Below are positions 15,606-24,191 of a stretch of 64,000 nt of DNA, in pieces. Made by a program: the position numbers and the translations under genes. The notes beneath the pieces are model-generated. The model was not told the DNA's origin. It was given only the letters and a program-made list of their open reading frames with translations, and searched no databases. How positions within the stretch are numbered: the first letter of the stretch is position 1; the number at the start of each line of letters is the position of its first letter. Source of the DNA: Microthrixaceae bacterium (lineage in GTDB: Bacteria > Actinomycetota > Acidimicrobiia > Acidimicrobiales > Microtrichaceae); assembly GCA_041394325.1 (NCBI GenBank), contig JAWKIJ010000001.1, forward strand, positions 1,381,096 through 1,445,095, written 5' to 3'.

Positions 15606-17668
15606 AACTCGTCGAGCCGATCGTCGTCGGTTCGCGCACGGCGCCGAGCCGTGTGCTGTTCGGTCCTCACGAGACGAACCTCGGCGACGGCCGATCCATT
15701 GGCGAACGCCACGCCGCGTACTACGGGCGCCGTGCCGCGGGCGGTGCGGGGGTGATCGTCACCGAGATCGCGTCGGTTCACCCGAGCGACTGGCCCTACG
15801 AGCGTGCGCCGCTCGCCACCGAGTGTCGGCAGGGTTGGGCCGCGGTGGTGCGGGAGTGCCGTCCCCACGGTGCGCTCGTGATCGCCGGGTTGGGCCACGC
15901 AGGGGGTCAGGGCTCGAGCGCGTACAGCCAACGCGAGCTCTGGGCGCCGTCGGGTGTCCCCGAGGTCAACACCCGTGAGGTGCCCAAGGTGATGGAGGAC
16001 GACGACATCGCCGCGGTCATCGCCGGTTTCGCCGAGGGGGCGGCCGCCGCGATCGCGGCGGGATGTGACGGCGTGGAGCTCAACGCGGGGCAGCACTCGC
16101 TGATCCGCCAGTTCCTGTCGGGCCTCACGAACCAGCGCGGCGACGGCTGGGCGGACCGCACCCGCTTCGCCGAGGAGGTGCTCGCCGCGACCGTCACCGC
16201 GGCCCGGGCGGTCGATCCCGCCGCCGTGGTCGGGCTGCGGCTGAGCGGCGACGAACTGGCTCCGTGGGCGGGGATCACCCCCGATGACGCCCCCCCGCTG
16301 GCGGCGACGCTCGCCCGCCACATCGACTACCTGGTGGTCGTCCGGGGATCGATCTTCTCGGTACCCGCCACGCGCCCCGACTCCCACGTCGAGACGGGCT
16401 TCAACCTCGCATTGTGCGGTTCGATCCGCGACGCCGTTCGAGCCGGGCACGGCGACCGGGTCGCGGTCTTCGCACAGGGCTCGATCGTCGAGGTCGCCCA
16501 GGCCGAGGCCGCGATCGTCGAGGGGGTCTGCGACGGCGTCGAGATGACCCGGGCCCAACTCGCCGACGCCTCGCTCGTGGCCAAGGTCCGCGCCGGCCGG
16601 GCCGATCGGGTGCGGCCCTGTGTGCTGTGCAACCAGACGTGCATGGTGCGCGATGCACGCAATCCGGTGGTCACCTGCGTGGTCGATCCTCGGACCGGAC
16701 ACGAACGCCGCGACCCCGAGGTGGACCCGGCGGTGTCTTCGTCGTCGCCGGTCGATCGGCGATCGGCCGACGGTGCGCCGGTCGTCGTGGTGGGTGCAGG
16801 TGTCGCCGGGCTCGAGGCGGCGCGCGTCGCCGCTATTCGAGGCCATCGGGTGACGGTCCTGGAACGCTCGGCCCACCCCGGAGGGATGGTGCGTGTCGCG
16901 TCGGCCGGCTCGGGGCGTGCCCGCCTGGCCGTGTTCGTCGACTGGCTGGTGGGCGAATGCGAGAATCTCGGGGTCGAGTTCCGCTACCACACCTCGCTCG
17001 ACCGGGCCGAGGACGTCCCGCCCGGTTCGGCGGTCGTGGTGGCCACCGGATCGACCGAGGGGCTCGCCGACTACACCCGCACGAAGGCGGCCGTCGTGCT
17101 CGGGCCCGCGGCGGTGCTCGACGCGCTCGAAGAAGCGGCAATACCGGCCGGTCGTGTACTGGTGTGGGACCCGATCGGCGGACCGATCGGCGTCTCGTCG
17201 GCCGAGACGCTGGCCGAAAGGGGGCGCGACGTCGTGCTGGCGACCCCGGACCAGTTGGCGGGCAACGAGTTGAGCCGTACGGGGGACCTGGCACCGGCGA
17301 ACGGCCGACTCCAACAGCGGGGGATCGTGATCGAACGGCGCGTGGTGCTGCGGGCGGTCCGCAAGGGCAGTGCCGAAGTCGAGGACCGGTTCTCGGGCCG
17401 GCGACGGACCATCCGGTGTGCGGTGGTGGTCGACGCGGGCCACCGGCTCCCCGACGACGCGTTGTTCCACACGCTCGCCGGCGAGGGTGGCGACAGTCGT
17501 CAGGACGCGTTCGTCGTGCGGGCGGGCGACTCGGTGGCCCCGCGCACCATCCTCGAGGCGGTGCGCGAAGGGCGCGCCGCGGCCATCGCGCTCGACGGGG
17601 GGATCCGGCTCAGTGACGGGGTGCCGATGGGCACCGGCGCCATACCCGGAGTGGGGATGACGCGGTGA
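15602..17668 (+). CDS. FadH/OYE-family flavin oxidoreductase (2,4-dienoyl-CoA reductase-like), mycofactocin-system type 1
   Basis: Tail of ORF 15206-17668 from GTG 15602, which overlaps the mftC stop. It has an OYE/FMN barrel, a CVLCNQTC iron-sulfur motif and a VVGAGVAGLEAA dinucleotide fold. Length 688 aa. Confidence 0.85.
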   Translation: MKLVEPIVVGSRTAPSRVLFGPHETNLGDGRSIGERHAAYYGRRAAGGAGVIVTEIASVHPSDWPYERAPLATECRQGWAAVVRECRPHGALVIAGLGHAGGQGSSAYSQRELWAPSGVPEVNTREVPKVMEDDDIAAVIAGFAEGAAAAIAAGCDGVELNAGQHSLIRQFLSGLTNQRGDGWADRTRFAEEVLAATVTAARAVDPAAVVGLRLSGDELAPWAGITPDDAPPLAATLARHIDYLVVVRGSIFSVPATRPDSHVETGFNLALCGSIRDAVRAGHGDRVAVFAQGSIVEVAQAEAAIVEGVCDGVEMTRAQLADASLVAKVRAGRADRVRPCVLCNQTCMVRDARNPVVTCVVDPRTGHERRDPEVDPAVSSSSPVDRRSADGAPVVVVGAGVAGLEAARVAAIRGHRVTVLERSAHPGGMVRVASAGSGRARLAVFVDWLVGECENLGVEFRYHTSLDRAEDVPPGSAVVVATGSTEGLADYTRTKAAVVLGPAAVLDALEEAAIPAGRVLVWDPIGGPIGVSSAETLAERGRDVVLATPDQLAGNELSRTGDLAPANGRLQQRGIVIERRVVLRAVRKGSAEVEDRFSGRRRTIRCAVVVDAGHRLPDDALFHTLAGEGGDSRQDAFVVRAGDSVAPRTILEAVREGRAAAIALDGGIRLSDGVPMGTGAIPGVGMTR

Positions 17669-19673
17669 GCGAACAGTTGTTGTGGTCGCCGTTGCGCATC
17701 GGACCCGTCACCGTGCGGAACCGTGTGGTGTTCTCGGCTCATCTCACCAACTACGCCACCCAGGATGGGCTGGCCTCGCCGCAGCACGCCGCCTACTACG
17801 CCGAACGCGCACGTGGTGGCGCCGGGCTGATCATCACCGAGGAGCACTCGACCCATCTCACCGACTGGCCCTACGAGAAGCTGATCCACGGCTTCCGGCC
17901 CGAGGTGGTCGAGGGCTACCGGGCGATCACCGAGGCGGTGCACCGGCATCGGACGCCGATCTTCGCTCAGATCAACCACAACGGGGGGCAGGCCTCGTCG
18001 ATGTTCAGCCGCCTGCCCGTGTGGGCGCCTTCGGCGGTGGCCGACCCGTTGTTCCGGGAGGTTCCAAAGGCGGTGAGCGCGTCGGAGATCGACGAGATCG
18101 TTGCCGGTTACGCGCTCGTCGCCGCGCACTGCCGGGAGGGCGGCTTCGACGGGATCGAACTCCAGTGCAGCCACAGTTCGATCGTGCGCGGATTCCTGTC
18201 GCCGGCCACCAACCGGAGGACCGACGACTACGGCGGGCCGATCGAGGCGAGGGCACGGTTACTGGTCGAGATCGTCTCGGCGGTCCGAGAGGCGATCGGT
18301 CCGGGCCTCGCCCTGGGGGTCCGCCTGTGCGGTGACGAACTGATCGACGGTGGCACCACAATCGCCGACGCGGTCGCCACCGCTCGCATCGTCGAGGCGA
18401 CCGGGCACGTCGACTACATCAACACCTCCATCGGGGTGGCGACCGCGTCGCTGTTCATGATCGAGGCGTCGATGCACATCCCTCCCAACTACGCGATGTT
18501 CATCCCCTCCGCCCTGCGCGCCGCGGTGGAACTCCCCGTCGTCGGGGTGGGTCGTTTCAAGGATCCGCTCCAGGCGGACCGGGCGCTCCGTGAGGGCCTG
18601 TGCGACCTCGTGGGAGTGGTGCGCGGCCAGATCGCCGACGCGGACTTCGTCCGCAAGGCCCGGGCCGGTCGCGCCGAAGACGTGCGGTTGTGCCTGTCGT
18701 GCAACCAGGAGTGCGTCGGCCGAATGGGCCTCAACCGTTGGCTCGGCTGCATCGAGAACCCGAGGACCGGTCGCGAGTCACAGGGGGTCGGGCTGGCGGC
18801 GCCGGTCGCCCGTCGCCGCCGGGTCCTGGTCGTCGGCGCGGGTCCCGCGGGTATGCAGGCGGCGATCGCAGCGGCCCGCAACGGACATCACGTCACGGTG
18901 CTCGAACGCGAACGCGAGGTCGGCGGGCAGCTTCGGATCGCCGCGACGGTGCCCAACCGCGCGGAGCTGGGCGACCTGGTGCGCAACCAGCTCGCCGAAT
19001 GCGGGCGCCTCGGCGTGGTCGTCGAGACGGATGTGGACGCGACCGTCGAAGGGGTGCGGGCGCACGGGGCCGACGAGGTCGTCGTCGCGACCGGCGCCGT
19101 GCCTGCACGGCCGTGGTGGGCGCCCGAAGAGGCCGACTGGATCGTCGACGTGCGCGACGTCCTCGAAGGCCGTGCGCATCCCCAGGGCGACGTCGTCGTG
19201 CTCGACGAGGTCGGCTTCCACCACGCCACCTCGGTGGCCGAGCTCCTCGCCGACCGAGGTTGTCGGGTCGAGGTCGTCACCCCGGCATGGTCGTCGGCCA
19301 GGACCTCGGGATCACGTTGGACATGGAGAACTGGTGGATCCGGGCGACGGCCAAGGGGATCGTCCAGACGATCGAACTCGTGCCGATGGGCGTCGACGCG
19401 GCGACCCGCACGGTCGCGTTCCAACATCATCCGACCGGCCGGGACGTGCAGCGCACGGTGGATGCGATGGTGTTGGCGGTGCCCGCTTCGCCGGCGGACT
19501 CCCTCTACTTCGCGTTGAAGGAGGCGGGTGTCGCGGTGCAACGGGTGGGCGACTGCGTCGCACCGAGGCGCGCGCATGCGGCGGTGATCGACGGTGAACG
19601 GGTCGGCTCGGCAATCGGCAGCCGTCTGGCGGGCAGGCCTCCCATGTTGCGGCGCTCTATGCGTCGTCGTTGA
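17665..19673 (+). pseudogene. FadH/OYE-family flavin oxidoreductase, mycofactocin-system type 2; one frame break near 19285
   Basis: ORF 17665-19518 carries the N-terminal OYE domain, CLSCNQECVG and VVGAGPAGMQAAI. From about 19285 the family-like sequence GMVVGQDLGITLDMENWWIRATAKG...GDCVAPRRAHAAVIDG continues in the frame of ORF 18600-19673. GTG 17665 overlaps the previous stop. Confidence 0.8.
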
Positions 19674-20623: not shown

Positions 20624-21649
20624 TCACTCGAACTCGGCCGGCAACTCCCAGGGGGCGGTCGGTAGTGGATCGCCCGTCTCCAGGAAGGTCTTCAGGTTGG
20701 ACAGGGCGGCCGGCCAGCCATGCTCGGCGGCCGTCCGGGTCGATCCCTCCAGTCCTTCGTGCAGCACCGTGAGACGGGTGACCGTCGTGAAGTCGTCGAG
20801 TCGGTAGGTGACCCGCGACGGTGGGGTTTCCGGTCCGGTTCGCTCCTCCCATGTCGTGACAAGGCGCTTCGGCCGTGTCGCCTCCAGGACCTCGCCGTCG
20901 ACGACGGTCGCCCCCGCACCGTCGTCGTGTCGGTTGCGCCACCGCGACCCCACTTCCCATGACGACTCGTTGCGACGGCCCCACCACGCGGCCGTGAGGT
21001 CCCCGTCGGTCAGCGCAGCCCACACGTCGTCGGCCGAGGCGCCCAGGTACAGCACGACCTGCAACGGCAGCGCGTCCGCGCCACGGTCCACGGTGGGTGC
21101 CACATCGACCGCGCCCGCCGGGTGGGTGGAGAGGTCAACGGGTCCGAGGGCGTGGATCCATCGGGTGTCGTGCTCGCCGGGTCTGCGGTCGAGTGGTCGC
21201 ACGAGTGGATCGGTCCGTACGGCCATGGACTCGAGCGCGGCGTCGACGGCGCCGCGGTCGGCGAAGGGGTGGAGCCGCTCGGATCTGGTCTTCAGCTCAC
21301 CGGCGGACTGGGGGCCGCGCAACAGCAACAACGTCACGATCGCCCGTTCGGCGTCGTCGATCCCGATTCGCTCGTCGAGCACCTGCCGGAATTTCACCGC
21401 CCGGGCACCGCCTGACGCGTAGACGATCCGTGCGAGGCCACGGGCCTTCAGGCGGTCGATCGCCTCGGTCACCGTCCGGTCGTCGAAGTCGACGACCGGG
21501 TCCCGGCTGTTCTTCTGGTTGCACGCCGTGCGTAGAGCGTTGAGCGTCATCGGGTACGTGTCGGGAACGGTGCGCTGCTTCTCCATCAGCGCCCCGATCA
21601 CCCGTTGCTCGACGGTGTCGAGTTCGGGAAGGCCGTCGGATGGCTCCAT
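20624..21649 (-). CDS. YceH (DUF480)-like domain fused to an SRPBCC/AHSA1 domain
   Basis: ORF 20624-22036. Start moved to ATG 21649 (MEPSDGLPELDTVEQRVIGALMEKQ, matching the start of E. coli YceH). C-terminal part reads ADDVWAALTDGDLTAAWWG...TRLTVLHEG. The Pro/Ser-repeat N-terminal extension in the track ORF is treated as the antisense shadow of the 48-bp repeat. Confidence 0.7.
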   Translation of the reverse strand: MEPSDGLPELDTVEQRVIGALMEKQRTVPDTYPMTLNALRTACNQKNSRDPVVDFDDRTVTEAIDRLKARGLARIVYASGGARAVKFRQVLDERIGIDDAERAIVTLLLLRGPQSAGELKTRSERLHPFADRGAVDAALESMAVRTDPLVRPLDRRPGEHDTRWIHALGPVDLSTHPAGAVDVAPTVDRGADALPLQVVLYLGASADDVWAALTDGDLTAAWWGRRNESSWEVGSRWRNRHDDGAGATVVDGEVLEATRPKRLVTTWEERTGPETPPSRVTYRLDDFTTVTRLTVLHEGLEGSTRTAAEHGWPAALSNLKTFLETGDPLPTAPWELPAEFE

Positions 21650-21719
21650 CGACCAGACGCTATTGCCCGTGCCGTCGACCTGCGGCGGGCCGTTCGCCGG
21701 TAGTGGATACAGTCCGCTC

Positions 21720-21956
21720 ATGACCATCACCGATGACGACATCACCGCCGGCCCCGCGGACGAAGAGCTCACGACGCTGACACTCGGCGACTCCGACGCC
21801 TCCGACGGCGGCGACAGTGACGGCACCGACGGCGGCGACTCCGACGGGTCCGACGGGGGCGACAGTGACGGCACCGACGGCGGCGACTCCGACGGGTCCG
21901 ACGGGGGCGACAGTGACGGCACCGACGGCGGCGACTCCGACGGGTCCGACGCCTGA
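21720..21956 (+). CDS. 78-codon acidic Asp/Gly/Ser/Thr-repeat ORF; either a separate small protein or (favoured) the frameshifted N-terminal extension of the downstream JmjC/cupin gene
   Basis: Tail of ORF 21519-21956 from ATG 21720. Reads MTITDDDITAGPADEELTTLTLGDSDASDGG(DSDGTDGGDSDGSDGG)x2 DSDGTDGGDSDGSDA. No strong SD. See finding. Confidence 0.35.
   Translation: MTITDDDITAGPADEELTTLTLGDSDASDGGDSDGTDGGDSDGSDGGDSDGTDGGDSDGSDGGDSDGTDGGDSDGSDA
21786..21950. repeat. 48-bp perfect tandem repeat, about 3.4 copies
   Basis: Unit gacagtgacggcaccgacggcggcgactccgacgggtccgacgggggc at 21813-21860 and 21861-21908 (identical). 21909-21950 is the first 42 nt of a third copy, and a diverged partial copy lies at 21786-21812. 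Confidence 0.9.
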
Positions 21957-22189
21957 ACGACCGAGTTCCTCCCGAGCAGGACGAGTCGGCCCTGTTCGAT
22001 TCCGAAGCGCACTGGCAGGTCCGGCGCGTCCTCCATCGGGACGCGCCGGACCTCGCCGCGCTCGTCGACGACGCCGCGACGTTCCGTTCGATCGACCTGT
22101 TCACCCGGCCCCGGGCATTTCCCGCACCGACCGGATCCGGCACGCCTGCTCTCACCTTCACCGACCCCGATCGCCTGTGGGACGACTTC

Positions 22190-23239
22190 TTGGGGCGCGG
22201 CACTCGTCGGCCCGCGTTCCGTCTGGTGGAGAACGGAGTCAACCTCGTGGCGTCCACCGTCACCCGTCGTGTGGGGATGGGCAATCGATCCCTCGACGAC
22301 GTGGTCGATCCCGCGGCCGTGGTTCGCCGCTACCGGGACGGGGCGACCGTCTCGCTACAAGGCCTGCAGCACACCGACCCGGAGCTGGCCCGGCTGGCCA
22401 ACAACCTCGCACTCGAACTCGATCACCGCACCCAGGTCAACGCGTACCTGTCGCCCTCGAATGCCCGGGGCCTCGACCTCCACCTCGACTTCCACGACGT
22501 GTTCGTGGTGCAGGTGCGCGGTGTCAAGCGGTGGCGCGTCTGGGACCCGCTCCCCGATGTCCGCCATCCTGTGAAGGGTCTGCACCGCGCGACGGGCCCG
22601 ACACTCGACGAACTCGGCGATCCGTCCCTCGACCTGACGATGCGGCCCGGTGACCGCCTCTACCTGCCACGGGGCTTCCTCCACGCCGCCGAGACGATCG
22701 ACGTCGCATCGGAGCACCTCACCGTCGGGCTCGTGCCGCTCCGCTGGGATCGGGTGCTGCACCGCTGCATCGACGCCGAGGTCGCGGGCGGGCGTTTCGC
22801 CGAGTCGCTTCCCGCCGGGCTGCTGTCGCCGGGCGCGGTCGCCGCACTCGGGTCCGCGGTCGCGTTCCCCTCGCTGCCGGCCGACGCGGTGGCGCGATGG
22901 GCGGGCTCGTCACTACAGCGGTGGATGGTCACCGAGATATGGCGTCGGCAACCGCTGACCCGCGTCCCGCCGCGGGATCTTCCCAGACCGGGCGACGGGG
23001 CGCCGTTGCACTGGACGCCCGGCCCACTGATCTGGCTGACCACAGAAGGCGGTCGCGCACGGCTCGGCTTCGGCGACCGGCGACTCGACCTGCCGATCGG
23101 TGCACTCGGATACCTGTCGTCACTGGTGGCCGCCGACCCGGCGGTCGACCTCGCATCGATCGAAGCCGACCTCGATGCGTCGTCCAGAGGTGTCGTCCTC
23201 CGGCGGATGTTGGGCGAGGGGCTCGTCGCGCATGACTGA
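22190..23239 (+). CDS. JmjC/cupin_4-family oxygenase (ribosomal-oxygenase-like); true 5' end probably further upstream
   Basis: ORF 22190-23239 (TTG start). Reads RPAFRLVENG..., VNAYLSPSNARGLDLHLDFHDVFVVQVRGVKRWRV and GDRLYLPRGFLHAAET. The same frame stays open and family-like upstream to about 21915, but has no ATG/GTG/TTG there. Confidence 0.75.
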   Translation: MGRGTRRPAFRLVENGVNLVASTVTRRVGMGNRSLDDVVDPAAVVRRYRDGATVSLQGLQHTDPELARLANNLALELDHRTQVNAYLSPSNARGLDLHLDFHDVFVVQVRGVKRWRVWDPLPDVRHPVKGLHRATGPTLDELGDPSLDLTMRPGDRLYLPRGFLHAAETIDVASEHLTVGLVPLRWDRVLHRCIDAEVAGGRFAESLPAGLLSPGAVAALGSAVAFPSLPADAVARWAGSSLQRWMVTEIWRRQPLTRVPPRDLPRPGDGAPLHWTPGPLIWLTTEGGRARLGFGDRRLDLPIGALGYLSSLVAADPAVDLASIEADLDASSRGVVLRRMLGEGLVAHD

Positions 23240-24191
23240 ACGCTCCGCACCGCGCTTCGAGTGTGCCCCGGCGTCGTGCGCGCGGGCCGAGCCGCTCGAC
23301 GCCACCGCAAGCAGGGTGCCTTCGTGGCTGTTGATCGAGGTGCACGGCGCGTGGGGGGCCGCGGCGATCGAGCAGAGCGCGTTGGGAGAGCACCTGCCAC
23401 CGGGTTGGCGAGCCGAGTTGAAACGGCACGGCATCCGCCCTGTTTGCATCCGCCGCCCGCGCCGCCCGCCCGCGTCGGACGACACGTCGGCGGCGACGGT
23501 GTTCCACGTGCGGCCGCGCCGCCCCGGCGAGGGACGCTCCGAGGTGTGGACGGCCACGGTCGGAGGACTCGACGCGATCGCCGGGCTCTCTGCCGCGATC
23601 GTGGCCGGGCTCGGCGCGCCCGATGCGGGACCGGGGCCACCATGGACACCGACGACCGATCCGATCGCGCTGATCTGCACCAACGGTCGTCACGATCCGT
23701 GCTGCGCGAACTTCGGCCGCCCGCTTGTCCGTGCCCTCGCGGAGGGTCCGTGGGCGGACCGATTGTGGGAGTGCTCCCACATCGGCGGCGACCGGTTCGC
23801 GCCCAACATGGTGTTGCTCCCCGAGGGCCTGTACTTCGGTCGGCTCGATCCGCGATCAGCGGTGGAGGCGTTGCACGCGTACGCGGCGGGGACGATTTCA
23901 CCGACGCACTTCCGCGGACGGTCCACGTTCCGGCTCCTCGAACAGGCCGCGGAGATCGCCGTGCGCCGACGATTGGCCGATCGCGGCCAGTTTCCGGGGA
24001 TCGACGACGTGCAGGTCGAGTTGCGGGGGGTCCTCGACTCGGTCGCCGAGTTGGTGGTGACGGCTTGCCGGGTGCGGCATCTGGTACGGGTGCGGTGCTC
24101 GACCGAGCAGGTAAGTGAACCACTCACCTGCAAGGGCCCGGGAGACCAACGTGCTCCCCGCTTCGAGGTGCTGGAGATCGCGGCCCGCTGA
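23232..24191 (+). CDS. sucrase/ferredoxin-like (thioredoxin-like [2Fe-2S]) family protein
   Basis: Tail of ORF 23100-24191 from ATG 23232 (ATGACTGA overlap with the cupin stop). Motifs LICTNGRHDPCCANFGRP and WECSHIGGDRFAPNMVLLPEGLYFGR. Confidence 0.75.
   Translation: MTERSAPRFECAPASCARAEPLDATASRVPSWLLIEVHGAWGAAAIEQSALGEHLPPGWRAELKRHGIRPVCIRRPRRPPASDDTSAATVFHVRPRRPGEGRSEVWTATVGGLDAIAGLSAAIVAGLGAPDAGPGPPWTPTTDPIALICTNGRHDPCCANFGRPLVRALAEGPWADRLWECSHIGGDRFAPNMVLLPEGLYFGRLDPRSAVEALHAYAAGTISPTHFRGRSTFRLLEQAAEIAVRRRLADRGQFPGIDDVQVELRGVLDSVAELVVTACRVRHLVRVRCSTEQVSEPLTCKGPGDQRAPRFEVLEIAAR

What the first reader, a model, noticed from the sequence alone, without database searches (positions are those of the whole stretch)
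21720..22190. Perfect 48-bp x3.4 tandem repeat encoding an Asp/Gly/Ser/Thr array, upstream of a JmjC/cupin gene whose conserved N-terminus has no start codon
SEEN: there are three head-to-tail units, two full identical copies plus 42 nt of a third. In the plus frame from ATG 21720 they read (DSDGTDGGDSDGSDGG)n and stop at 21954-21956. The antisense frame that shares wobble positions reads SDPSESPPSVPSLSPP. Between 21957 and 22176 there is no ATG, GTG or TTG in any plus frame. Yet the cupin frame is open there and reads ...ALFDSEAHWQVRRVLHRDAPDLAALVDDAATFRSIDLFTRPRAF...FTDPDRLWDDFLGRGTRRPAFRLVENG. This looks like the usual N-terminal region of cupin_4/JmjC proteins. INFERENCE, model A (favoured): a 1-nt deletion near 21952 (gacgcctga versus gacgccctg) separates the acidic-repeat ORF from the cupin. 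The real product would then be a roughly 500-aa JmjC oxygenase with a hyper-acidic, length-variable N-terminal tail. Model B: a separate 78-aa acidic repeat peptide lies next to a 2-oxoglutarate/Fe oxygenase plus a thioredoxin-like ferredoxin. That would be a precursor-plus-modifying-enzyme arrangement, for example for Asp hydroxylation. Perfect unit identity implies recent expansion and probable copy-number variation.
Basis: partly seen in the sequence, partly recalled or inferred. Interest (0 to 1): 0.6.

Follow-up and report, generated by a model that had tools for sequence, protein, structure and literature searches.

The report
Acidic repeat peptide, CTG-started JmjC oxygenase
The repeat is the coding core of a real, conserved 78-residue acidic peptide gene that sits in front of an intact protein-hydroxylase gene whose missing start codon is not a sequencing error: most sampled relatives that carry the peptide gene share it, and the enzyme is most likely started at a rare CTG codon overlapping the peptide's stop codon.

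Summary
There is a 48-nt repeat of 3.5 copies, perfect over 142 nt. An ORF runs from ATG 21720 to TGA 21954-56. The JmjC frame is open from 21917 and has no ATG, GTG or TTG before 22190.

The favoured reading, a 1-nt deletion and a fused protein, is not supported. In 45 of 58 related Acidimicrobiia loci the same small ORF precedes the JmjC gene and a Suc_Fer-like gene. It has a conserved N-terminus (M-S/G-I-S/T-N/D-D-D-I), a (G-D-S/T-D-G-T-D-G)n core and a TGA stop. Three more peptides with unrelated, SD-led leaders have the same two neighbours.

All 45 ORFs carry a TAnnnT hexamer 6-8 nt before the ATG, which implies a leaderless mRNA.

In 22 loci, the window included and Illumina assemblies among them, the JmjC frame is +2 to the peptide frame. 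There is no canonical start, and a CTG overlaps the stop as CTGA. Spacer lengths differ only by multiples of three.

The best model is two separate proteins, with the oxygenase restarted at CTG 21953 (or 21992) by translational coupling. That the peptide is the oxygenase's substrate (Asp hydroxylation) is inference.

The parts
21708..21713 (+). -10-like hexamer TACAGT, 6 nt upstream of the small ORF's ATG. It is the inferred promoter of a leaderless transcript that starts at A 21720.
   Evidence: A TAnnnT hexamer begins 12-14 nt before the ATG in 45 of 45 related small ORFs. The background chance of such a hit is 0.27%. The base at -1 is C in 45/45. No experimental TSS is available.
21720..21956 (+). 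Small ORF of 78 aa plus TGA. It has a conserved N-terminal leader (MTITDDDI...DEEL) and an acidic (GDSDG[TS]DG)n core (25 Asp, 20 Gly, pI about 4).
   Evidence: Homologous ORFs sit directly upstream of the JmjC gene in 45 of 58 loci. A profile search gave 260 hits, all unnamed and without Pfam domains. GC by codon position is 0.71/0.58/0.92. This exact sequence is not in the protein collection searched, so no stored gene call has it.
21785..21951 (+). Tandem repeat: 48-nt period x 3.5 (24-nt sub-period x 7). It is perfect from 21810 to 21951 and encodes the peptide core.
21953..21956 (+). CTGA overlap. CTG 21953-55 is in the JmjC frame and overlaps the peptide's TGA stop at 21954-56. This is the proposed coupled (termination-reinitiation) start of the oxygenase.
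   Evidence: A CTG at -1 from the stop, in phase with JmjC and with no ATG, GTG or TTG available, occurs in 22 loci. In L056 a TAG in the JmjC frame lies immediately before the CTG. Stop-to-Trp distances are 17, 29, 50 and 59 nt and differ by multiples of 3.
21992..21994 (+). Second in-frame CTG, 21 nt before the conserved Trp codon, preceded by AGGACGAG 8 nt upstream. It is the alternative start of the oxygenase.
   Evidence: and direct reading of the sequence. In relatives the CTG (or the ATG in L037, L038, L067) lies 18 nt before the Trp codon. The window alone has 42 extra nt between the CTGA and the Trp.
21953..23239 (+). ROX-type JmjC (PF08007) Fe(II)/2-oxoglutarate oxygenase gene, 428 codons if it starts at CTG 21953. 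The public call of 337 aa from GTG 22226 is truncated.
   Evidence: Pfam JmjC_2 1.4e-23. PDB profile hits: NO66 7e-22, MINA53 1e-17, YcfD 8e-9. Full-length Foldseek matches to NO66, MINA53 and YcfD with TM about 0.6. H189/D191/H256 and about 100 other positions are invariant across 20 homologues, the window included. P0002 is the stored 337-aa call.
22017..22053 (+). Perfect 15-bp hairpin (22017-22031 with 22039-22053, 7-nt loop). It lies over the codons for V-R-R-V...D-A-P-D at the start of the oxygenase.
   Evidence: The region 21940-22070 folds at -74.6 kcal/mol, z -5.08. In 20 relatives 79% of cells pair, against 27-45% when the partner is slid, but covariation is not above shuffles. Its role is unresolved.
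23232..24191 (+). Suc_Fer-like (PF06999) thioredoxin-fold, presumed [2Fe-2S] protein of 319 aa. Its start overlaps the oxygenase stop (ATGACTGA).
   Evidence: Pfam 1.7e-16. It follows the JmjC gene in every locus whose gene content was listed. The motifs CTNG[RK]HDxCC and SH[IVL]GGDRF are present in 59/59 loci.
20624..21649 (-). Divergent neighbour, a DUF480 + AHSA1 protein. It is not part of the cassette. Its long ORF extension runs antisense through the repeat by chance.
   Evidence: The Pfam DUF480 match starts at residue 139 of the 470-aa ORF. ATG 21649 gives MEPSDGLPELD. The upstream neighbour differs in other loci.

Best explanation
The window carries one copy of a three-gene operon that is conserved but patchy in Acidimicrobiia.

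(1) A leaderless mRNA starts at the A of ATG 21720. It first encodes a free-standing 78-residue peptide that is very acidic and probably disordered. The peptide has a conserved N-terminal leader and a tandem (G-D-S-D-G-T/S-D-G)n core, which is the 48-nt DNA repeat.

(2) The peptide ORF ends at TGA 21954-56. The ROX-type JmjC Fe(II)/2-oxoglutarate oxygenase gene is intact and lies in the +2 phase. It has no ATG, GTG or TTG because that phase of a Cys/Trp-free ORF cannot contain an NTG codon before the TGA itself. Ribosomes that finish the peptide most likely restart at the CTG overlapping the stop (CTGA, 21953). The less likely site is the SD-preceded CTG at 21992. Either way the oxygenase is made as a separate protein, probably at a low ratio to the peptide.

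(3) The Suc_Fer-like iron-sulfur-type protein is coupled to the oxygenase by an ATGACTGA overlap.

(4) Function (inferred): the peptide is the oxygenase's dedicated substrate or partner. The most likely reaction is hydroxylation at many Asp residues (beta-hydroxy-Asp), with the Fe-S protein as a redox helper or second tailoring step.

Shown: the gene structure, its conservation, the phase relation, and the fold and catalytic triad of the oxygenase. Inferred: the leaderless start, CTG reinitiation and all of the chemistry.
For: Small ORF. It is conserved in 45 of 58 loci, including the isolate genomes Aquihabitans sp. McL0605 and A. daechungensis DSM 27986. Three peptides with unrelated, SD-led leaders are also followed by JmjC_2 and Suc_Fer-like genes. 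A TAnnnT hexamer and C at -1 are present in 45/45. The codon-position GC pattern is that of coding sequence.

Not an assembly error. 22 loci, the window included, share the +2 phase, the CTGA overlap and the lack of a canonical start. They include Illumina assemblies, judging by contig names of megahit, SPAdes and 'ilm_asm' type. This arrangement is spread over the whole JmjC tree, including its deepest branches.

The spacer is coding. Stop-to-Trp distances are 17 nt in 14 loci, then 29, 50 and 59 nt, all congruent modulo 3.

Position of the start. ATG-started relatives begin exactly 18 nt before the Trp codon, which is where the CTG lies in most +2 loci. In L056, L049 and L023 an in-frame stop lies 0-2 codons before the CTG.

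The N-terminus is needed. It is a confident beta-strand with invariant residues H40, L46, L49, D52, F56 and P65.

The enzyme looks functional. The HxD...H triad is intact and the ROX fold is complete.

Precedents. NUGA overlaps and termination-reinitiation onto SD-less genes occur in Mycobacterium tuberculosis (PMC11260477; bioRxiv 10.1101/2022.06.01.494293). JmjC hydroxylases act on precursor peptides: CzlI (PMC11575548) and BipG (PMC12707348). A Fe/2OG Asp hydroxylase works in a RiPP: SmaO (PMC12186529).
Against: CUG is a poor and rarely used start codon in Actinobacteria. The mycobacterial survey of 515 NUGA overlaps found no CUG starts, and AUG-to-CUG was used there as a null mutation (bioRxiv 10.1101/2022.06.01.494293; PMC11260477).

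The C before TGA is present in 45/45 loci whatever the phase, and C makes up 68% of third positions. The CTG itself is therefore not clearly under selection as a start.

In the window the CTGA lies 59 nt before the Trp codon, not 17 nt, so the exact start (21953 or 21992) is open.

There is no TSS, ribosome-profiling, proteomic or read-level evidence.

Substrate role: no conserved protease or exporter lies nearby. The oxygenase is not notably basic, with pI 5.5-9.2. No chemistry has been shown.

The window's JmjC sits on a long branch (0.88, best identity 58%).
Confidence: 0.6

Rival explanations
1. One reading: a 1-nt indel, either an assembly error or a recent mutation near 21952, splits what is really one gene for a JmjC oxygenase of about 500 aa with an acidic repeat tail.
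For: The genome is a MAG (12 contigs, 91% complete). Related long-read MAGs do show frameshifts, for example the L076 small ORF and the truncated L059 and L076 JmjC genes. Reads could not be checked.
Against: The same phase offset and stop are found in 22 loci from independent assemblies, Illumina ones included. In-frame stops in the JmjC frame lie just before the junction in L056, L049 and L023. ATG-started relatives have no acidic tail. Fusion would need a different correction in each phase class.
Confidence: 0.03
2. Programmed recoding: ribosomes slip -1 at the TGA without releasing the peptide, so the main product is a peptide-oxygenase fusion.
For: A minor frameshifted fusion was seen at the AUGA overlap of uPPE2-PPE2 in mycobacteria (PMC11260477). 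A strong hairpin lies downstream. CUG is a weak start codon.
Against: There is no slippery heptamer. The last sense codon varies (TCC, GCC, AGC), so P-site re-pairing after a -1 slip is not conserved. The hairpin starts 19 nt after the stop in relatives and 60 nt after it in the window, outside the usual 5-9 nt. Other lineages would need +1 slippage or read-through. ATG-started lineages make the enzyme alone.
Confidence: 0.07
3. The oxygenase really starts downstream, at TTG 22190 or at GTG 22226 as in the stored 337-aa gene call. The region 21957-22189 would then be an untranslated remnant.
For: These are the first canonical start codons. The stored gene call for this genome is 337 aa.
Against: The upstream 60 residues align with all homologues and contain invariant residues. 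They have coding-type GC by codon position. They form confident secondary structure inside the fold. Spacer indels keep the frame.
Confidence: 0.04
4. The small ORF is mainly a translational landing pad or regulatory upstream ORF for an SD-less oxygenase gene. Its product would have no function of its own, or would be a partner such as a metal buffer, inhibitor or chaperone rather than a substrate. The oxygenase would then hydroxylate something else, such as a ribosomal protein, as other ROX enzymes do.
For: All characterised ROX enzymes act on ribosomal proteins (names of the PDB entries). There is no conserved protease or exporter. The uORF landing-pad precedent is PMC11260477.
Against: The acidic DxDG repeat core is retained even where the leader and the mode of initiation differ completely (SD-led L077, L078, L080). 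It is also retained where the oxygenase has its own ATG (L037, L038). All three divergent peptides whose context was looked up were next to the enzyme pair. A landing pad does not need a conserved composition or a conserved N-terminus.
Confidence: 0.22

Closest known systems
Ribosomal oxygenases (ROX): human NO66/RIOX1 and MINA53/RIOX2, E. coli and Rhodothermus YcfD/RoxA (Pfam JmjC_2, PF08007)
   Same: Sequence profile and full-length fold match (JmjC barrel, helical dimerisation region, C-terminal winged-helix-like domain). The HxD...H iron triad is intact.
   Different: Identity is only 17-21%. Known ROX enzymes hydroxylate Arg or His of basic ribosomal proteins and, in the literature held here, are not described as encoded with a private peptide. 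This one is always preceded by a hyper-acidic repeat peptide and followed by a Suc_Fer-like protein.
JmjC and Fe/2OG tailoring hydroxylases of RiPP pathways: CzlI (curacozole), BipG (biphenomycin), SmaO (Asp to beta-hydroxy-Asp)
   Same: A small precursor-like ORF with a conserved leader and a variable core lies next to a JmjC or Fe/2OG hydroxylase. Peptide hydroxylation by this enzyme class is established (PMC11575548, PMC12707348, PMC12186529).
   Different: CzlI is YxbC-like, not NO66-like. Those clusters also contain cyclases, proteases or exporters, which are absent here. The core here is a long polyanionic repeat rather than a short bioactive core. No product is known.
NUGA stop/start overlaps with termination-reinitiation in Actinobacteria (M. 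tuberculosis uPPE2-PPE2)
   Same: A four-base overlap in the +2 phase, a downstream gene that seems to depend on translation of a short upstream ORF, and an Actinomycetota host (PMC11260477; bioRxiv 10.1101/2022.06.01.494293; PMC6728339).
   Different: The overlapping start here is CUG, which the mycobacterial survey did not find at all. The upstream ORF is itself leaderless and conserved as a protein.
Apd1/Aim32-type thioredoxin-like [2Fe-2S] ferredoxins (Pfam Suc_Fer-like, PF06999)
   Same: Pfam match, with the paired Cys motif and the HxGG motif present.
   Different: The second His of HxGGH is Asp (HxGGD) in all 59 cassette members. The Apd1/Aim32 ligand set is recalled from my own knowledge and was not checked here. 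The partner relationship with a JmjC enzyme is undescribed.

Membership tests
JmjC_2 / ROX oxygenases (PF08007) | Profile match above the curated threshold | tested here: met
   83.2 bits against a cut-off of 22, E 1.4e-23. PDB profile hits to NO66, MINA53 and YcfD.
JmjC_2 / ROX oxygenases (PF08007) | HxD/E...H iron-binding triad | tested here: met
   H189, D191 and H256 are invariant in 20 homologues, the window included. They align with the NO66 core.
JmjC_2 / ROX oxygenases (PF08007) | Three-part ROX architecture (JmjC, dimerisation helices, C-terminal winged helix) | tested here: met
   Foldseek aligns 415-500 columns to full-length NO66, MINA53 and YcfD, TM 0.5-0.63. The linker at residues 276-321 has low confidence.
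JmjC_2 / ROX oxygenases (PF08007) | Ribosomal-protein substrate | not testable with these tools
   No biochemical data. Gene context points to the acidic peptide instead.
RiPP-like peptide-modification system | Short precursor with a conserved leader and a variable core, next to the modifying enzyme | tested here: met
   The M[SG]I[ST][ND][DE]DI leader and a repeat core of 3-16 DxDG units lie directly upstream of the JmjC gene in 45 loci.
RiPP-like peptide-modification system | Leader peptidase and/or exporter in the cluster | tested here: not met
   Neighbours beyond the three genes differ from locus to locus.
RiPP-like peptide-modification system | Demonstrated post-translational modification | not testable with these tools
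   Needs mass spectrometry.
NUGA termination-reinitiation coupling | Four-base stop/start overlap in the +2 phase | tested here: met
   CTGA at 21953-56 and in 22 loci in all, the window included.
NUGA termination-reinitiation coupling | Canonical start codon (AUG, GUG or UUG) in the overlap | tested here: not met
   CTG in all 22 loci.
NUGA termination-reinitiation coupling | Downstream expression depends on upstream translation | not testable with these tools
   Needs reporter constructs.
Leaderless actinobacterial mRNA | -10 TANNNT 6-8 nt upstream of the start codon, with no SD | tested here: met
   45/45 loci against a 0.27% background; window hexamer TACAGT at 21708-13. The generic sigma-70 scan finds nothing.
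Leaderless actinobacterial mRNA | Mapped transcription start at the start codon | not testable with these tools
-1 programmed ribosomal frameshift | Slippery X XXY YYZ site with a structure 5-9 nt downstream | tested here: not met
   No heptamer at GAC GCC TGA or GAC TCC TGA. The hairpin lies 19 nt downstream in relatives and 60 nt in the window.
Suc_Fer-like (PF06999) | Profile match and cluster-ligand motifs | tested here: met
   61.3 bits against a cut-off of 34.9. CTNG[RK]HDxCC and SH.GGDRF in 59/59 loci, with Asp in place of the second His.

The most novel reading that the evidence does not exclude
The cassette is a self-contained, undescribed protein-modification system. A NO66-like ROX oxygenase would convert many Asp residues of its own genetically encoded, length-variable polyanionic peptide into beta-hydroxy-Asp, possibly processed further by the HxGGD iron-sulfur protein. 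The product would be a ribosomally made metal-chelating (Ca/Fe) polymer. The enzyme-to-substrate ratio would be set by an evolutionarily fixed CUG restart codon on a leaderless mRNA.
Probability: 0.2. Interest if true: 0.85.

Novelty: new variant of a known kind. Interest (0 to 1): 0.62.

Why it matters
There are two points.

First, a conserved enzyme gene lacks any canonical start codon in 22 of the loci sampled, the window included. It can only be opened by a CTG overlapping the upstream stop, or by a recoding event there. If confirmed, this would be a natural, conserved case of CUG-dependent termination-reinitiation in Actinomycetota, where surveys found none. It also explains why gene finders truncate the oxygenase. 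In this genome the stored call is 337 aa instead of about 428, and no stored call has the peptide's sequence.

Second, the strict peptide / ROX-type JmjC / Suc_Fer-like trio gives bacterial ROX oxygenases a candidate non-ribosomal substrate. That substrate can be tested directly by co-expression and mass spectrometry. I found no description of the cassette in the literature I could search. Earlier notes of this scan report the same cassette in other genomes.

Tried and rejected
- NCBIfam has no family for the peptide, the oxygenase or the Fe-S protein. Pfam has none for the peptide.
- I first thought the T/P/A-rich +1 reading of the repeat, seen as an N-terminal tail in Aquihabitans-type homologues, meant a 1-nt insertion in the window. 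I rejected this when the closest relatives proved to share the window's +2 phase.
- A basic oxygenase would have fitted an acidic substrate, but its pI is 5.5-9.2, so the overall charge of the enzyme gives no support for binding an acidic substrate.
- Hairpin covariation test: pairing is conserved but not above shuffles, and it is confounded by the conserved VRRV..DAPD codons.
- To gauge the assembly's indel rate I ran tblastn of the FadH paralogue. Homology ends near 19284, but the cause was not resolved.
- Literature searches for the cassette found precedents only, no description. The Sci Rep 2015 paper on reinitiation at non-canonical codons concerns a eukaryotic system and was set aside.
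- The search of earlier findings by sequence returned nothing.
Full report
**Observation**

Tandem Repeats Finder reports an array at 21785-21951 with period 48, 3.5 copies and 97% matches; it also scores as seven 24-nt units. The strictly perfect period-48 stretch is 21810-21951, 142 nt.

From ATG 21720 the plus frame reads MTITDDDITAGPADEELTTLTLGDSDASDGG(DSDGTDGGDSDGSDGG)n...DA and stops at TGA 21954-56. The JmjC frame is offset by +2. It is open from 21917 to TGA 23237-39. It has no ATG, GTG or TTG before TTG 22190, and no such triplet occurs in any plus frame between 21957 and 22178. The only near-cognate codons in that frame before the conserved Trp codon (22013) are CTG 21953 and CTG 21992.

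**The region upstream of 22190 is coding**

- Homologues align from 'HWQVRRVxHxDAPxL' onwards, and this segment contains invariant residues.
- GC by codon position is 0.74/0.51/0.82 for 21956-22189 and 0.78/0.51/0.84 for the rest of the gene.
- In the AlphaFold model, residues 1-29 of the open frame have pLDDT below 50. From residue 31 the pLDDT is 86-88, and WQVR forms a beta-strand.

The stored gene call for this genome is 337 aa from GTG 22226 and is therefore truncated. No stored call has the 78-residue ORF's exact sequence.

**What the proteins are**

The long ORF matches Pfam JmjC_2 (1.4e-23). A profile of 20 homologues hits NO66 (7e-22), MINA53 (1e-17) and YcfD (8e-9) in the PDB. The model aligns over its full length with these ribosomal oxygenases, with TM about 0.6. 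The iron triad H189/D191/H256 is invariant.

The next gene, 23232-24191, overlaps the JmjC stop as ATGACTGA and matches Suc_Fer-like (1.7e-16).

The minus-strand ORF 20624-22036 is a DUF480 + AHSA1 protein. Its domain match begins at residue 139, and its likely start is ATG 21649. Its antisense passage through the repeat is incidental, because the upstream neighbour differs in other loci.

**Comparative evidence for the small ORF**

I collected 58 related loci from Acidimicrobiia, including two isolate genomes of Aquihabitans. In 45 of them a small ORF of the same family lies directly upstream of the JmjC gene. It has a conserved N-terminus M-[SG]-I-[ST]-[ND]-[DE]-D-I, a core of DxDG-type repeats (3-16 units, 46-151 aa in total, 31% Asp and 25% Gly) and a TGA stop. 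Several of the remaining loci are cut at the contig end or were missed only by my leader pattern.

A profile search found 260 such proteins, all unnamed and without Pfam domains. Three divergent members have unrelated leaders and strong Shine-Dalgarno sites. They are also followed by JmjC_2 and Suc_Fer-like genes.

Codon-position GC is coding-like: 0.55/0.39/0.88 in the first 20 codons across loci.

In all 45 loci a TAnnnT hexamer begins 12-14 nt before the ATG, and the base before the ATG is C. The chance rate for such a hexamer is 0.27%. This is the usual layout of actinobacterial leaderless transcripts; that statement rests on established knowledge, and the review PMC9031893 turned up but was not read. 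In the window the hexamer is TACAGT at 21708-13.

**The missing start codon is a conserved feature, not an error**

The phase of the JmjC gene relative to the small ORF falls into three classes:

- **+1 class** (Aquihabitans and others). ATG or GTG codons arise inside the repeat. The oxygenase then carries a T/P/A-rich tail, which is the +1 reading of the repeat.
- **In-phase class** (L037, L038; also L067, where no small ORF was detected). The oxygenase has its own ATG exactly 18 nt before the Trp codon.
- **+2 class.** This holds 22 loci, the window included, and covers three peptide subtypes. There is no ATG, GTG or TTG between the upstream in-frame stop and the start of homology. A CTG overlaps the TGA as CTGA.

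The +2 loci include Illumina assemblies, judging by contig names of megahit, SPAdes and 'ilm_asm' type, as well as long-read ones. On the JmjC tree the +2 class is spread over the whole tree, including the deepest branches.

The stop lies 17 nt before the Trp codon in 14 loci, and 29, 50 and 59 nt before it in L035, L046 and the window. All of these are congruent modulo 3, so the spacer is read in the JmjC frame.

In L056 a TAG in the JmjC frame directly precedes the CTG. In L049 and L023 a stop lies 1-2 codons before it. Entry into the JmjC frame must therefore happen at the junction itself.

The absence of canonical starts has a simple cause. In the +2 phase an NTG codon needs a TGN codon in the peptide frame. 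A peptide without Cys or Trp offers that only at its TGA stop.

**Mechanism**

The most economical reading is termination-reinitiation. Ribosomes that finish the peptide restart on the overlapping CTG. In most loci this CTG sits exactly where the ATG of separately started relatives sits.

Four-base NUGA overlaps that feed SD-less downstream genes are common and experimentally supported in Mycobacterium tuberculosis (PMC11260477; bioRxiv 10.1101/2022.06.01.494293; general case PMC6728339).

The weak point is that CUG starts are rare there. None was found among 515 NUGA overlaps, and AUG-to-CUG served as a null mutation. In addition, the C before TGA is present in 45/45 loci regardless of phase, while C is 68% of third positions. 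Selection for CTG as such is therefore not shown.

A -1 slip at the stop is less likely. There is no slippery site, and the last sense codon varies (TCC, GCC, AGC). The other phase classes would need different recoding events.

In the window 42 extra nucleotides separate the CTGA from the Trp codon. A second CTG at 21992 has AGGACGAG 8 nt upstream. I cannot decide between 21953 and 21992.

**Hairpin**

A perfect 15-bp hairpin (22017-31 with 22039-53) covers the V-R-R-V...D-A-P-D codons. The region 21940-22070 folds at -74.6 kcal/mol with z -5.08. In 20 relatives 79% of cells pair, against 27-45% when the partner is slid. Covariation does not exceed shuffles (51 of 500), and the pairing is confounded with the conserved peptide motif. 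Its role is open.

**Function**

The strict association of peptide, ROX-type oxygenase and Suc_Fer-like protein persists across changes of leader, of initiation mode and of phase. That argues the peptide matters as a product. The likeliest role is substrate.

JmjC and other Fe/2OG hydroxylases acting on precursor peptides are documented: CzlI (PMC11575548), BipG (PMC12707348) and the Asp hydroxylase SmaO (PMC12186529). Beta-hydroxylation of Asp is therefore the best guess.

Against a classical RiPP, there is no conserved protease or exporter. The enzyme is also not notably basic.

The Suc_Fer-like partner carries CTNG[RK]HDxCC and SH.GGDRF in 59/59 loci.

Close orthologues of the oxygenase occur in only 3 of 301 sampled genomes of the class, so the cassette is patchy.

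Model A (a deletion and a fused 500-aa protein) is not supported. Model B fits the gene structure, but its chemistry is untested.

Earlier notes of this scan describe the same cassette in other genomes, and one of them describes the CTG restart and a hairpin. I reached the CTG conclusion before reading them. I then tested the hairpin here, with an inconclusive result.

**Limits**

There are no reads, no TSS data, no proteomics and no biochemistry.

Noticed in passing
window 22017-22053: A perfect 15-bp hairpin lies over the oxygenase's conserved VRRV..DAPD codons. The local fold has z -5.08. Pairing potential is kept in relatives, but covariation is not significant.
   Followed up: partly
L020, L022, L041, L042, L044, L048 (junction regions): In the +1 phase class a different hairpin (CGAGCCAC-loop-GTGGCTCG) starts about 4 nt after the peptide's TGA and spans the Trp codon. 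It may push ribosomes back to start codons inside the repeat.
   Followed up: no
window 17665-19673: Two overlapping ORFs in different frames (17665-19518 and 18600-19673) both look like parts of one FadH/OYE-type flavoenzyme. Homology to the upstream paralogue stops near 19284. This could be a frameshift or a rearrangement.
   Followed up: partly
window 23232-24191 and 59 related loci: The Suc_Fer-like partner always has SH[IVL]GGDRF. From memory, the yeast relatives Apd1 and Aim32 have a second His ligand at the Asp position, so this would be a distinct ligand set kept throughout the cassette.
   Followed up: partly
window 21956-22012: The window alone has 14 extra codons (NDRVPPEQDESALF...) between the CTGA overlap and the conserved Trp. 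Its oxygenase also sits on a long tree branch (0.88 against a median of 0.2).
   Followed up: partly
L076 2799-2987; L059, L076 JmjC genes: In these long-read MAG loci the small ORF (L076) or the JmjC gene (L059, L076) is broken by apparent frameshifts. Real indel errors therefore do occur in this data type.
   Followed up: no
L080 4196-4207: In a distant relative (GCA_016185275.1) the oxygenase is in phase with the peptide. It follows the TGA by two codons and was called with a CTG start by the source's own gene finder.
   Followed up: no
L020-L022, L040-L044, L048 (repeat regions): Rare GAT GGT or AGT codons inside the acidic repeat create ATG or GTG in the +1 frame. The window has GTG at 21817, 21865 and 21913 from GAC AGT GAC, although its oxygenase is not in that frame.
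   Followed up: partly
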